From positions 7,525-71,524 of the forward strand of contig CAMTJT010000004.1 in NCBI GenBank assembly GCA_947073285.1: 64,000 nucleotides of DNA. The letters are read 5' to 3'. Source of the DNA: an uncultured Clostridium sp. GTDB lineage: Bacteria; Bacillota; Clostridia; TANB77; CAG-508. Positions 36,628 through 38,307 of this stretch are shown piece after piece; position 1 is the stretch's first letter, and each line of letters opens with the position of its first letter. The position numbers and the translations under genes were made by a program. The notes under the pieces are model-generated. The model had not been told where the DNA came from. It searched no databases and saw only the letters and a program-made list of their open reading frames with translations.

Positions 36628-36760
36628 ATGCTACCTCCCTTTTTTATTATTTTATATGATAACATCACATTTTTCAACAGTTTACTTTAATATATAATTT
36701 TAAAATAAATTCAATCCTACAAATTGCATTTACTTTACAGAATTGCATTTAACTTTTCAC

Positions 36761-36789
36761 TTGACATTTAAAATAATTTCTCGTAAATT
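36761..36789 (+). promoter_or_regulatory. Candidate promoter of the two-gene cassette, preceded by direct repeats
   Basis: TTGACA (36761-36766), 17-nt spacer, TAAATT (36784-36789). AATTGCATTTAC / AATTGCATTTAAC direct repeats lie at 36722-36733 and 36741-36753. Confidence 0.45.
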
Positions 36790-36883
36790 TGGTTCTAAAT
36801 CTAAGGAAAATGCGAAATTTGTCGTAAATACTTTATATTCTTCAAAAAATGTGATAGAATTTCTGTTGTTAGGGAGGAAAATT

Positions 36884-37795
36884 ATGGATAAAAAAATGAA
36901 CCAAAAGAAAATTACAATTGAATATTATAATACATGTGCACTTAACCAAGAATGTGGAAGTGATTTTAGTAGAGATATTACAGACATATCTATTTTATTA
37001 AATTCATTATCCCATAGACCTGTTAAGGAGAGAACTATAAACTATAATGGTGAAAACTTGTTATTAAGTTTTATTGAGTTTAATAATGAATCAAAATTAT
37101 GGGAATTAATTTTTTTTAAAAGTAGATCTTCTACCATCCCGATTATTATTGATACAAATGGAAATTCACATCAAATTCTATTAAAAGATAATGAAATGAT
37201 TTCTGAAGCATTATGTGTTCTTTATGACTCATCAACCCAAATACTATGTATGCAAAGAAATATATATGCCTTTGGAACAAAAGGCATTGAGGACTTTTTT
37301 TCTTTCTTTTCCAAACCTAATATTTACCTAGAATCAATACATAAATTAGATTCACAAAAAAAATCTTTATTGAAGGGATCTAAATTTAAAAAATTTAAAC
37401 TACATATAAGAAATGGAATAAATAAAAATTTATCACCTACGGCTTCTAAACAGTATAATAAAAATACTTCTATTTGCAAAGTAATAGATTCAGCATTAGC
37501 TGTTAATTCTTCTATTATTAATATTGAGTTCTCAATGGGAAATTCTTCTAATATAATAAAAATAGAAGATGAAGATTTTGAAGTTTTTCAAGATTTAATG
37601 AATAACAATAATGTTAAAGTTTTTGAACTTGGATTTGCTCCAGATGAGAAATCTAATATGCAAATTACCGACTTTATGGATTCAAGAATTCATGATACTT
37701 TATCTATCTCTTACCCTAAAGGAGGAATCGTAGATTTTAAAGATATTATAAATAAAATGACAGAAAAGTATAGAAATAATTTATTTTTTAAGTAG
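36884..37795 (+). CDS. Uncharacterised 303-aa soluble protein (candidate defence-system sensor/effector partner)
   Basis: Start ATG 36884 has AGGGAGGA 5-6 nt upstream (the track ORF begins at 36743). No catalytic motif recognised. Tightly followed (13 nt) by a 4-TM protein gene. Confidence 0.65.
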   Translation: MDKKMNQKKITIEYYNTCALNQECGSDFSRDITDISILLNSLSHRPVKERTINYNGENLLLSFIEFNNESKLWELIFFKSRSSTIPIIIDTNGNSHQILLKDNEMISEALCVLYDSSTQILCMQRNIYAFGTKGIEDFFSFFSKPNIYLESIHKLDSQKKSLLKGSKFKKFKLHIRNGINKNLSPTASKQYNKNTSICKVIDSALAVNSSIINIEFSMGNSSNIIKIEDEDFEVFQDLMNNNNVKVFELGFAPDEKSNMQITDFMDSRIHDTLSISYPKGGIVDFKDIINKMTEKYRNNLFFK

Positions 37796-37808
37796 GTGAT
37801 TATATTAA

Positions 37809-38213
37809 ATGGAATTAAATAAAGTTTTAATTAGAATTATTACAGTTTTATCTTTTATTGCTGTAATTCTCCTAGATTTTATAGATATCTCACAATATAT
37901 AGATTATACAGCAAATATAGATAGTACTATTGCTAATGTAATTACTTTTGTATCTATTCTAATTGGTTTTATCTCTACAATTTATGTAATGATACAACAA
38001 AGTGAAAACTCCTATGTTCTTAAATTGTTAAAACAATTTAAAGTAATAAATATATTTAATAACTCATTTAAACTTTTAATTTATGTAGGTTTTCTTGATG
38101 TTATTGTTCTAATTGCTTTAAACTTTTTTAGCTATAATATTACACTTTTTAAATATATTTTTTACATAGCTTTTCCTTTAAATATTTATTTTTTACTACT
38201 ATATGTAAAATAA
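37809..38213 (+). CDS. Small 4-TM membrane protein (candidate membrane effector)
   Basis: 134 aa with four hydrophobic helices. Co-transcribed with the 303-aa gene. Confidence 0.6.
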   Translation: MELNKVLIRIITVLSFIAVILLDFIDISQYIDYTANIDSTIANVITFVSILIGFISTIYVMIQQSENSYVLKLLKQFKVINIFNNSFKLLIYVGFLDVIVLIALNFFSYNITLFKYIFYIAFPLNIYFLLLYVK

Positions 38214-38273
38214 TAATATCTGAAGAAAAATTGAAAAGTAAAAATAAAAAACTAGATGATAATGATGTTAAAT

Positions 38274-38307
38274 AGAAACATTAAAGGATTTGTCCTTTAA
38301 TGTTTCT
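38274..38307. terminator. Bidirectional Rho-independent terminator
   Basis: Perfect 15-bp stem AGAAACATTAAAGGA / TCCTTTAATGTTTCT followed by a T-run, between convergent operons. Confidence 0.8.

What the first reader, a model, noticed from the sequence alone, without database searches (positions are those of the whole stretch)
36722..38307. Orphan two-gene cassette: 303-aa soluble protein plus 4-TM protein at the edge of the defence island
A self-contained unit comprises direct repeats AATTGCATTTA(A)C x2, a TTGACA-17-TAAATT promoter, a 303-aa protein with a strong SD, then 13 nt later a 134-aa four-helix membrane protein and a perfect 15-bp terminator. Neither protein shows a motif I can name. 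A soluble sensor paired with a small membrane effector is a recurrent abortive-infection layout, and the neighbours are all immune genes. I have a vague recollection that the 303-aa protein resembles a DUF-only family, which I cannot verify.
Basis: inference. Interest (0 to 1): 0.65.

Follow-up and report, generated by a model that had tools for sequence, protein, structure and literature searches.

The report
Rex-like phage exclusion gene pair, broken
This is one copy of a widespread, uncharacterised two-gene module of Firmicutes prophages (a soluble DUF6731 protein plus a four-helix membrane protein) that most resembles the classic lambda RexA/RexB phage-exclusion system, and in this genome the membrane gene is cut short by a 22-bp deletion.

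Summary
The two genes are real. Gene A (36884-37795, 303 aa) is a full-length DUF6731 protein (E 3e-43). Gene B (37809-38213, 134 aa) is a truncated allele: relatives are 162 aa, and the window lacks 22 bp between two TTACTACTAT repeats, losing half of TM4 and the charged tail. The A-then-B arrangement held at every related locus where the downstream DNA could be read (well over 80), down to about 20% identity. Most distant copies sit in temperate phages just upstream of the small terminase gene. The window clade sits in variable chromosomal islands beside R-M, Mza-like and Ppl genes.

A confident AlphaFold model (pLDDT 91) has no significant PDB match. Its best weak hits are CENP-N, RdgC and CENP-L, the fold class published for lambda RexA. 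The DUF6731 profile aligns end to end with RexA (hhalign P 0.005), and RexB's best non-self PHROG hit is the B family (E 0.034).

Best reading: a distant RexAB-type sensor-plus-membrane-effector module, probably inactive here. This rests on weak homology and has no experimental support. Its promoter and direct repeats are not conserved in relatives.

The parts
36722..36751 (+). Two exact direct copies of AATTGCATTTA (36722-36732 and 36741-36751), 19 bp apart. Specific to this window; function unknown.
   Evidence: these are the only exact copies in the window; they are absent from the upstream regions of relatives, including the 87%-identical L007.
36761..36789 (+).
   Evidence: 10 of 12 matches. 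Not conserved in relatives. Such matches are frequent in this AT-rich DNA.
36832..36860 (+). Proximal promoter-like site with an extended -10 (TTTATA-17-TAGAAT, preceded by TG). This is the conserved candidate promoter of the cassette.
   Evidence: flags the TG before the second hexamer; the block ATACTTTATATT...ATGATA(A/G)AAT is conserved across window-clade relatives.
36871..36878 (+). Shine-Dalgarno sequence AGGGAGGA of gene A.
   Evidence: Sequence read directly.
36884..37795 (+). Gene A: a 303-aa soluble DUF6731 protein (phrog_10865), the putative RexA-like sensor or DNA binder. Family-wide motifs are L-x-D-D-E-x-I-G-E (window L100-E108) and Q124-R125-N126.
   Evidence: - Family: Pfam E 3.2e-43; phrog_10865 E 1e-33.
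- Conservation.
- Model: (pLDDT 91.1).
- Fold hits.
- hhalign against RexA.
37809..38213 (+). Gene B: the truncated (134 aa) allele of a 162-aa four-TM membrane protein (phrog_17119), the putative RexB-like effector. TM1-3 and the first half of TM4 are retained.
   Evidence: - Translation.
- Relatives are 162-164 aa.
- TM prediction.
- phrog_17119.
- All partners are mutually homologous.
38193..38202 (+). Deletion junction: the single remaining copy of TTACTACTAT. Intact relatives carry two copies 22 bp apart, so the 22 bp between them have been lost.
   Evidence: alignment with L001 and L002; the allele is seen in three further assemblies, and the intact allele on 17 or more contigs.
38195..38275 (+). 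Out-of-frame remnant of B's original C-terminus (TTICKIIISEEKLKSKNKKLDDNDVK, then stop).
   Evidence: it differs from the P0046 tail by two residues only.
38270..38311 (+). Intrinsic-terminator-like hairpin: 19-bp perfect stem, 4-nt loop, T-run. It lies between the cassette and the convergent 329-aa gene.
   Evidence: dG -23.9 kcal/mol, z -7.1, 0 of 200 shuffles as stable; conserved in L001 and L002.

Best explanation
The cassette is one copy of a conserved, horizontally mobile two-gene module carried mainly by Firmicutes prophages. Gene A is a soluble DUF6731 protein. Gene B, tightly coupled just downstream, is a roughly 160-190-aa membrane protein with four helices and a charged cytoplasmic tail.

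The most likely function is a RexAB-type exclusion (abortive-infection) system. A would be a dimeric, RexA/RdgC-fold protein that senses an infecting phage, through DNA or DNA-protein intermediates or through a phage protein. It would then activate B, which compromises the membrane potential and stalls the infected cell.

- Shown here: the anatomy, the strict A-B linkage, the phage and island habitats, and the truncation.
- Inferred: the kinship to RexA (weak statistics), DNA binding, B acting as the effector, and any anti-phage activity.

In this window the module is probably inactive. The 22-bp deletion removes the second half of TM4, including the family's conserved R/N134 and I136 positions, and the whole C-terminal tail of B.
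For: 1. **Module conservation.**
   - B follows A at every related locus where the downstream DNA could be read. These comprise the window-clade loci, E. faecalis prophages, S. suis, Facklamia and Aeribacillus phage AP45, 34 of 34 metagenome loci with a complete A ORF (gaps -59 to +23 nt), and 29 of 29 IMG/VR contigs (some overlap the metagenome set).
   - All 44 partners are mutually homologous and hit phrog_17119.
2. **Autonomous, moron-like unit.** The cassette has its own promoter-like site and terminator in the window and in E. faecalis prophages.
3. **Habitat.**
   - It lies in temperate phage genomes just upstream of terS. Of 150 neighbouring proteins, about 15 are TerL, 13 TerS and 9 portal.
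4. **Fold.** With two independent models (pLDDT 78.5 and 91.1), the top PDB hits are CENP-N, RdgC and CENP-L. A BFVD hit annotated 'Exonuclease' is consistent with RdgC, since phage RdgC homologues commonly carry that label. Adams et al. 2024 (PMC11077077) define exactly this 'RexA/RdgC/IML3/CHL4 fold' for lambda RexA.
5. **Secondary-structure order.** The model has an N-terminal antiparallel sheet, then a block of four strands and four helices, then a C-terminal helix. This fits the published RexA domain plan of a split globular domain plus a dimerisation domain.
6. **Profile-profile comparison, A against RexA.**
   - DUF6731 against the lambda-type RexA alignment scores 26.9, P 0.005, over 260 collinear columns covering both proteins end to end.
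   - Against the 4-sequence RexA alignment the score was 24.7. Column shuffles of that alignment gave 14.2 +/- 2.9, with 2 of 150 reaching it and at most 124 aligned columns.
   - The families' most conserved motifs align: L-x-D-D-E-x-[IL]-G, R125 with R105, and the C-terminal helix M-x-x-x-Y-x-x-R-x-K.
   - HMMER of a DUF6731 HMM against eight RexA sequences gives P 0.002-0.015 for seven of them.
7. **Calibration.** The same method gives no signal between lambda RexA and the experimentally validated actinophage 'RexA-like' proteins (P 0.71). PADLOC's Rex models also miss those proteins.
8. **B against RexB.** Both are similar in size, with four TM helices and the same inferred N-in/C-in topology. 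Lambda RexB's second-best hit among 38,880 PHROGs is phrog_17119 (E 0.034, 100 collinear residues). hhalign gives P 0.02-0.06 over TM1-TM2.
9. **Which partner is toxic.** The truncated-B, intact-A allele persists in at least four assemblies. Loss of B is therefore tolerated, as expected if B is the toxic effector rather than the antidote.
Against: - No Foldseek PDB match is significant (best E 0.003-0.03, TM 0.20-0.27). Lambda RexA itself (8TWQ) is not among the top 50 hits of either model.
- hhalign probabilities are only 1-7%, and all homology statistics are in the 0.002-0.06 range.
- My own B-family HMM gives no signal against RexB, so the B-RexB link could be transmembrane composition alone.
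- Pfam RexA/RexB and PADLOC RexA/RexB give no hit.
- Unlike lambda and CarolAnn, the pair is never seen next to a cI-like repressor. It sits at the boundary between the early and packaging modules.
- No member has a tested phenotype, and no paper mentions DUF6731.
- I made no quantitative defence-island enrichment test.
Confidence: 0.55

Rival explanations
1. Phage-development function rather than immunity. A would be an RdgC/RexA-like DNA-binding modulator of recombination, replication or the early-to-late switch of its own prophage, as RexA tunes the lambda lysis-lysogeny switch. B would tether or regulate it at the membrane. Copies in bacterial islands would be prophage remnants.
For: - Most distant family members lie inside phage genomes, co-directional with lytic genes. 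They sit between the recombination and replication genes or an ArpU-like late activator and terS.
- RdgC homologues are common in phage recombination modules.
- RexA has a documented RexB-independent role in the lambda switch.
Against: - The pair has its own promoter and terminator and wide intergenic gaps, which is the moron signature.
- It also occurs with no phage context: in the S. suis pur operon, in a Facklamia island, and in Clostridia islands next to R-M systems.
- The membrane partner is strictly retained.
- The DUF6731 profile gives no sequence signal against RdgC.
Confidence: 0.15
2. Reversed roles, as in mycobacteriophage Butters, or a toxin-antitoxin-like arrangement. The soluble A would be the toxic effector, and the membrane protein B would sequester or neutralise it until infection.
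For: The Butters gp30/gp31 precedent is summarised in Rosendahl et al. 2026. The tight translational coupling of A and B (13 nt, often overlapping) is typical of TA pairs.
Against: The natural allele with truncated B and intact A is found in at least four assemblies. That would be lethal or costly if B were the antidote, unless the N-terminal 131 residues are enough. The nearly invariant residues of A did not suggest a recognisable catalytic site to me; this is a judgement, not a test.
Confidence: 0.1
3. Superinfection exclusion at the envelope. B would block DNA entry of incoming phages, in the manner of Sie or Ltp, with A as an accessory protein. There would be no abortive infection.
For: The pair is prophage-encoded, includes a small membrane protein, and sits in a moron position.
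Against: From general knowledge, known Sie systems are single membrane proteins or lipoproteins without a conserved 300-aa cytosolic partner. A's fold class and RexA-like motifs point to an intracellular sensing role.
Confidence: 0.07
4. The pair is a conserved two-gene module of some unrelated function, and the resemblance to RexAB is coincidental. It would reflect a common alpha/beta architecture and generic transmembrane composition.
For: Every homology statistic is weak, and RexA is absent from the top Foldseek hits.
Against: Several independent weak signals point the same way. These are the fold class, an end-to-end collinear alignment with coinciding signature motifs, partner type, gene order, protein sizes and the prophage niche.
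Confidence: 0.13

Closest known systems
Bacteriophage lambda RexA/RexB exclusion system (Pfam PF15969 and PF15968; PADLOC RexA and RexB)
   Same: - Two adjacent co-directional genes, soluble protein first (279 aa in lambda, 303 aa here) and a four-TM protein second (144 aa in lambda, 162 aa here).
- Carried by prophages.
- Both have their own promoter and terminator or are expressed in the lysogen.
- The soluble protein's model falls in the RexA/RdgC/CENP-L/N fold class.
- End-to-end profile alignment (P 0.005), with the most conserved motifs coinciding (L-x-DDE-x-[IL]-G).
- RexB's best non-self PHROG hit is the partner family.
   Different: - No hit to the RexA or RexB sequence models.
- RexA (8TWQ) is not among the top Foldseek hits.
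- The pair is not adjacent to a cI-like repressor. In phages it sits upstream of terS.
- B has an extra charged C-terminal tail of 25-40 aa.
- The hosts are Firmicutes.
- There is no experimental evidence.
Actinophage Rex-like systems (Sbash gp30/gp31, CarolAnn gp44/gp43) and P. putida RexABpp (PP_5643/PP_5644)
   Same: - The same architecture of a sensor plus a four-TM effector.
- Carried by prophages.
- Sbash expresses the pair from its own promoter, away from the repressor.
- These systems were assigned to the Rex type on weak or remote similarity plus layout, which is the standard applied here.
   Different: - Those systems have demonstrated defence phenotypes.
- Their sensors are 337-372 aa.
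- The P. putida sensor reaches HHpred probability 98% to RexA, whereas DUF6731 reaches only P 0.005 with local hhalign and no secondary-structure scoring.
- DUF6731 shows no profile similarity to the actinophage sensors.
RdgC (recombination-associated DNA-binding ring; PDB 2OWL) and its phage homologues
   Same: The same length (303 aa). RdgC is among the best Foldseek hits for both models, and a BFVD 'Exonuclease' match is consistent with it, since phage RdgC homologues often carry that label.
   Different: - TM-score is only about 0.26.
- There is no sequence-profile signal.
- RdgC has no membrane partner and acts in recombination control.
Pfam DUF6731 (PF20505), phrog_10865 and phrog_17119
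   Same: Gene A is a bona fide full-length member (148.8 bits against a cut-off of 27). B-family proteins match phrog_17119.
   Different: These families carry no functional annotation. The obligatory pairing of the two families, and the link to RexAB, was not found in the searched literature (0 papers mention DUF6731).

Membership tests
Pfam DUF6731 (PF20505) | Score above the Pfam gathering threshold over the full-length model. | tested here: met
   148.8 bits (cut-off 27), E 3.2e-43, residues 5-299 on model positions 1-290 of 295; all 65 aligned relatives match.
RexAB-type exclusion system | Two adjacent co-directional genes: a soluble protein of about 280-370 aa followed by a membrane protein of about 140-180 aa with four TM helices. 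| tested here: met
   (window and intact allele). Pairing is conserved in 34 of 34 metagenome loci and 29 of 29 viral loci, and in every other locus examined.
RexAB-type exclusion system | The sensor belongs to the RexA sequence family (Pfam PF15969, PADLOC PDLC02339, phrog_12654). | tested here: not met
   Searches give no hit. The validated CarolAnn gp44 also fails the PADLOC model, so this criterion is narrower than the way the name is used in the literature.
RexAB-type exclusion system | The sensor has the RexA/RdgC/IML3/CHL4 two-domain fold. | tested here: inconclusive
   - The top Foldseek PDB hits of two models are CENP-N, RdgC and CENP-L, but with E 0.003-0.4 and TM 0.20-0.27.
- RexA 8TWQ is not in the top 50.
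- The predicted secondary-structure order fits the published RexA domain plan.
RexAB-type exclusion system | Detectable remote sequence homology of the sensor to RexA (profile-profile). | tested here: inconclusive
   - hhalign score 26.9, P 0.005, 260 collinear columns.
- Shuffle control against the 4-sequence RexA alignment (real score 24.7): 2 of 150 reached it.
- HMMER P 0.002-0.015.
- HH probability is only 7%.
RexAB-type exclusion system | The membrane partner is related to RexB (Pfam PF15968, PADLOC PDLC02340). | tested here: inconclusive
   - No Pfam or PADLOC hit.
- Lambda RexB hits phrog_17119 at E 0.034, second-best of 38,880 families.
- hhalign P 0.02-0.06.
- My own HMM gives no signal.
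RexAB-type exclusion system | Prophage-encoded and expressed in the lysogen (next to cI in lambda and CarolAnn; from its own promoter in Sbash). | tested here: inconclusive
   Prophage or phage location is shown for most distant members. A private promoter-like site and terminator are present. The pair is never adjacent to a repressor gene in the loci examined, and expression was not measured.
RexAB-type exclusion system | The sensor dimerises and binds DNA, activates the membrane partner, causes membrane depolarisation, and excludes phage. | not testable with these tools
   Needs biochemistry and plaque assays.
RdgC family (Pfam RdgC) | Sequence match to RdgC. | tested here: not met
   no RdgC hit among the 65 members; hhalign against E. 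coli RdgC scores 12.1 over 17 columns.
Known defence systems in PADLOC-DB v2.0 | Any model hit for A or B. | tested here: not met
   no hits at E <= 0.1 for the window pair or for the distant pairs.

The most novel reading that the evidence does not exclude
DUF6731 plus its four-TM partner would be a previously unrecognised, Firmicutes-wide branch of the RexA/RdgC-fold superfamily, coupling a DNA-clamp-like sensor to a membrane effector. That would make it the first Rex-type family in Gram-positive low-GC bacteria.

Its constant position at the boundary between the early and packaging modules of temperate phages would then reflect a dual role. It would sense replication or packaging intermediates, both to time the phage's own late development and to abort heterologous infection. 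On this reading it is not simply a lambda-style exclusion system.
Probability: 0.2. Interest if true: 0.75.

Novelty: new variant of a known kind. Interest (0 to 1): 0.55.

Why it matters
- **Small known class.** As of January 2026 only five RexAB-like systems had been described (PMC12894663), all from Proteobacteria or Actinobacteria phages. How RexA senses infection is still unresolved some 70 years after Benzer's observation.
- **What the link would add.** The representative search found 450 clusters at 50% identity for DUF6731. If the link holds, a DUF gains a functional hypothesis, and a large, diverse Gram-positive family of Rex-type modules opens up in Enterococcus, Streptococcus, Clostridia and thermophilic Bacilli phages.
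- **Practical uses.** The family offers many natural sequence variants for comparative and structural work. It also bears on phage therapy and starter-culture robustness in enterococci and streptococci.
- **A natural control.** The truncated and intact alleles of B differ by one 22-bp deletion, which provides a ready-made loss-of-function control.

Tried and rejected
- **PADLOC, NCBIfam and Pfam on both proteins.** Only DUF6731 was found.
- **Literature search for 'DUF6731'.** Zero papers.
- **PDB sequence search with the family profile.** Nothing relevant.
- **Pfam scan of 65 family members at E <= 1.** No secondary family such as RdgC, RexA or DUF4747.
- **The search for related loci with broad alignments.** It failed because no stretch was conserved enough. 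Narrower alignments worked.
- **RdgC as the direct relative.** Rejected at sequence level.
- **Actinophage Rex-like proteins as a bridge.** There is no profile signal either to DUF6731 or to lambda RexA, so they cannot serve as intermediates.
- **An enlarged B-family HMM against RexB.** No signal, so I do not claim B-RexB homology.
Rejected as conserved features.
- **Assembly error as the cause of the short B.** Rejected, because the allele recurs in independent assemblies.
- **Island boundaries.** A tRNA scan and PDB sequence searches of two neighbouring proteins gave nothing.
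Full report
**1. What is in the window**

- Gene A runs from the ATG at 36884 to 37795 (303 aa), behind an AGGGAGGA Shine-Dalgarno.
- Gene B starts 13 nt later at 37809 and stops at 38213 (134 aa).
- A 19-bp perfect hairpin with a T-run follows at 38270-38311 (dG -23.9 kcal/mol, z -7.1 against shuffles).
- Two exact AATTGCATTTA copies (36722 and 36741) and a TTGACA-17-TAAATT site (36761-36789) are present.
- Neither the repeats nor that site is conserved in relatives, not even at 87% protein identity.
- What is conserved upstream is a proximal extended -10 site, TTTATA-17-TG-n-TAGAAT at 36832-36860.

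**2. Gene B is a truncated allele**

- Of 66 relatives, nearly all are 162-164 aa. One of them, P0046, is 100% identical over the shared part.
- Aligning the DNA with two near-identical contigs shows that the window lacks 22 bp lying between two copies of TTACTACTAT. This is a classic slippage or microhomology deletion.
- The frame shifts after residue 131. The protein loses the second half of TM4 and the charged tail.
- The old C-terminus is still readable out of frame at 38195-38275, with only two substitutions. The event is therefore recent.
- It is not an assembly artefact. The exact 134-aa product is encoded in three other assemblies (ERZ13641592, ERZ13641599, SRR12464018). The intact allele is on at least 17 contigs.
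- The lost segment contains two of the better conserved positions of the family, R/N134 and I136.

**3. Family assignment**

- A is a full-length member of Pfam DUF6731 (E 3.2e-43) and of phrog_10865. It has no hit in PADLOC or NCBIfam.
- An exhaustive profile search found 450 cluster representatives (50% identity clusters) at E <= 1e-3. Almost all are single-domain proteins of about 300 aa.
- B has no Pfam family, but it and all distant partners match phrog_17119.
- No paper in the searchable library mentions DUF6731.

**4. The pair is an obligate module**

B follows A at every related locus where the downstream DNA could be read:

- window-clade contigs and MAGs;
- Enterococcus faecalis prophages, Streptococcus suis and Facklamia;
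- Aeribacillus phage AP45;
- 34 of 34 metagenome loci with a complete A ORF, with gaps of -59 to +23 nt;
- 29 of 29 IMG/VR viral contigs. Some of these overlap the metagenome loci.

All 44 collected partners are mutually homologous. They share four hydrophobic helices, an S-I-x-I-G-F motif in TM2, a K/R-rich loop between TM2 and TM3, and a charged C-terminal tail of 25-40 aa. By the positive-inside rule this gives an N-in/C-in topology (inference).

**5. Habitat**

- *Phage genomes.* In E. faecalis the cassette sits in several different prophages, between an ArpU-like activator and the small terminase gene. It is flanked by roughly 350-nt gaps, a good promoter match and a terminator.
- AP45 has the pair in the same place.
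- I scanned 150 neighbouring proteins from 20 metagenome loci. The commonest families were portal (9), large terminase (about 15), small terminase (about 13), MuF, minor capsid, Sigma70_r4, RecT and helicases.
- The dominant niche of the distant relatives sampled is therefore the temperate phage genome, at the boundary between the early and packaging modules, as a moron-like unit.
- *Chromosomal sites.* The pair also occurs in the S. suis purine operon between purK and purB, where the protein is on more than 230 contigs. It is also in a small Facklamia island.

**6. Structure of A**

- With a shallow alignment, AlphaFold gave pLDDT 78.5. With 65 diverse sequences it gave pLDDT 91.1 and pTM 0.86.
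- Neither model has a significant PDB match (no E <= 1e-3).
- Both times the best hits were human CENP-N, E. coli RdgC and, lower down, CENP-L. TM-scores were only 0.20-0.27.
- In the viral library the model matches uncharacterised phage proteins. One of them is annotated 'Exonuclease'. Phage RdgC homologues often carry that annotation, although I did not check this particular protein.

**7. The link to RexAB**

A literature search on RdgC and defence led to Adams et al. 2024 (PMC11077077). Their main points are:

- The lambda RexA crystal structure is a split globular domain plus a dimerisation domain of four strands and four helices.
- It has 'unexpected structural homology' to RdgC and to Iml3/Chl4, which are CENP-L and CENP-N.
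- RexA is a soluble DNA-binding dimer, and its partner RexB is a 144-aa four-TM inner-membrane protein.

The predicted secondary-structure order of A fits that plan. It has an N-terminal antiparallel sheet with two helices, then helix-strand repeats giving four strands and four helices, then a final strand and a long C-terminal helix. This is inference, because I could not superpose coordinates.

**8. Sequence tests of the link**

| Comparison | Result |
|---|---|
| DUF6731 alignment vs lambda RexA alone | score 20.0, P 0.037, 261 collinear columns |
| vs 4 RexA homologues | score 24.7, P 0.009 |
| vs 8 RexA homologues | score 26.9, P 0.005, residues 9-304 on 4-276 |
| Column shuffles of the 4-sequence RexA alignment | 14.2 +/- 2.9; 2 of 150 reach the real score of 24.7; at most 124 columns align |
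| DUF6731 HMM vs eight RexA sequences | P 0.002-0.015 for seven of them |
| DUF6731 vs E. coli RdgC | no signal |
| DUF6731 vs CarolAnn gp44 | no signal |

The alignment superposes the strongest motifs of both families:

- DUF6731 L-x-D-D-E-Y-I-G-E on RexA L82-A-D-D-E-S-L-G-F;
- Q-R-N on A-R105-T;
- the C-terminal helix M-x-x-K-Y-x-x-R-K on M-A-Y-C-Y-A-R-M-K.

Calibration matters here. With the same method, lambda RexA against the experimentally validated actinophage 'RexA-like' proteins (CarolAnn gp44, Sbash gp30, Sejanus gp46) gives nothing (P 0.71). PADLOC's RexA and RexB models also miss CarolAnn gp44 and gp43. By sequence, DUF6731 is therefore closer to lambda RexA than the accepted Rex-like sensors are.

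**9. The membrane partner**

- Lambda RexB's second-best hit among 38,880 PHROG families, after its own, is phrog_17119, the B family. The hit has E 0.034 and covers residues 9-108 on profile positions 19-115.
- hhalign of B-family against RexB alignments gives P 0.057, 0.022 and 0.034, over TM1-TM2 or part of it. In the shuffle control, 3 of 100 reach the real score.
- My own B-family HMM gives no signal against RexB.
- I therefore treat B as RexB-like in size, topology and position. I do not claim demonstrated homology.

**10. Interpretation**

- The best-supported reading is a distant RexAB-type module: a soluble sensor with a RexA/RdgC-class fold, coupled to a small four-TM effector.
- The module is carried as an autonomous moron by Firmicutes temperate phages and is occasionally captured in chromosomal islands.
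- The published Rex model (PMC11077077, PMC12894663, PMC6426596) has the sensor activated by phage DNA-protein intermediates or by a phage protein. It then triggers the membrane protein, causing depolarisation or permeabilisation and growth arrest.
- Everything beyond anatomy, linkage, habitat and weak homology is inferred.
- The persistence of an allele with truncated B and intact A argues that B is the costly component, not A. That fits the lambda-type polarity better than the reversed Butters-type polarity.
- In this window the module is most likely dead.

**11. What weighs against it**

- No structural match is significant, and RexA itself is absent from the top 50 Foldseek hits.
- HH probabilities are 1-7%.
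- The pair is never adjacent to a repressor gene.
- No member has been tested.
- I could not compute a defence-island enrichment statistic.
- The rivals are a phage-developmental role, a reversed TA-like polarity, an envelope-level superinfection block, and an unrelated function. Together I give them about 45%.

**12. Novelty and interest**

- Rosendahl et al. [quoted passage not shown]
- The searched literature contains no mention of DUF6731 and no link between it, or its obligatory 4-TM partner, and RexAB.
- If the link holds, this is a new, large and sequence-divergent variant of a known kind of system.
- I rate interest at 0.55. The hypothesis is useful and directly testable, and it assigns a function to a DUF. 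The evidence is weak-statistics bioinformatics, and this particular locus is a broken copy.

Noticed in passing
window 33643-35179 (- strand); also L022 1997-3533: The comM (Mg-chelatase-like, YifB) gene is split into two overlapping ORFs (231 aa and 303 aa). A related MAG contig shows the same split (226 aa and 283 aa), so this looks like a lineage feature rather than a sequencing error.
   Followed up: partly
[not shown]
   Followed up: partly
window 47934-50417 and 51514-53721 (- strand): An 827-aa protein with a PHP domain matches PADLOC Ppl. Further right is a D5/DUF5906 primase-helicase with a CHC2 zinc finger. Together they suggest that the whole region right of the pair is an integrated mobile element. 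No tRNA gene is present in the window.
   Followed up: partly
L018 10001-11438 (Streptococcus suis): A DUF6731 plus 4-TM pair is inserted inside the purine biosynthesis operon between purK and purB, co-directional with it. The protein cluster is on more than 230 S. suis contigs, so this is a fixed chromosomal, non-prophage location.
   Followed up: no
L013-L017 9142-9633 (E. faecalis prophages): A conserved 163-aa transcriptional-activator-like protein (phrog_248) always lies about 370 nt upstream of the pair, in prophages whose terminase and capsid modules otherwise differ.
   Followed up: no
L117 (Gordonia phage CarolAnn gp44/gp43), L118 (Sbash gp30/gp31): PADLOC's RexA and RexB models do not detect the experimentally validated CarolAnn gp44 and gp43. 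hhalign of an alignment of CarolAnn, Sbash and Sejanus proteins against lambda RexA/RexB alignments also gives no signal. Current Rex models therefore cover only the lambda-type branch.
   Followed up: yes
window 38270-38311 compared with L001 and L002: The terminator hairpin differs from close relatives at two positions near the top of the stem and in the loop (GGATTTGTCC in the window, GAATTTATCC in the relatives). The long perfect stem is kept.
   Followed up: no
window 36310-36627 and 35563-36285 (- strand): MazG-like and SprT-like genes lie divergent from the pair. MazG is also adjacent in L120 but is replaced by TnpV plus a 98-aa ORF in L021-L023. The left flank of the cassette is therefore variable.
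   Followed up: partly
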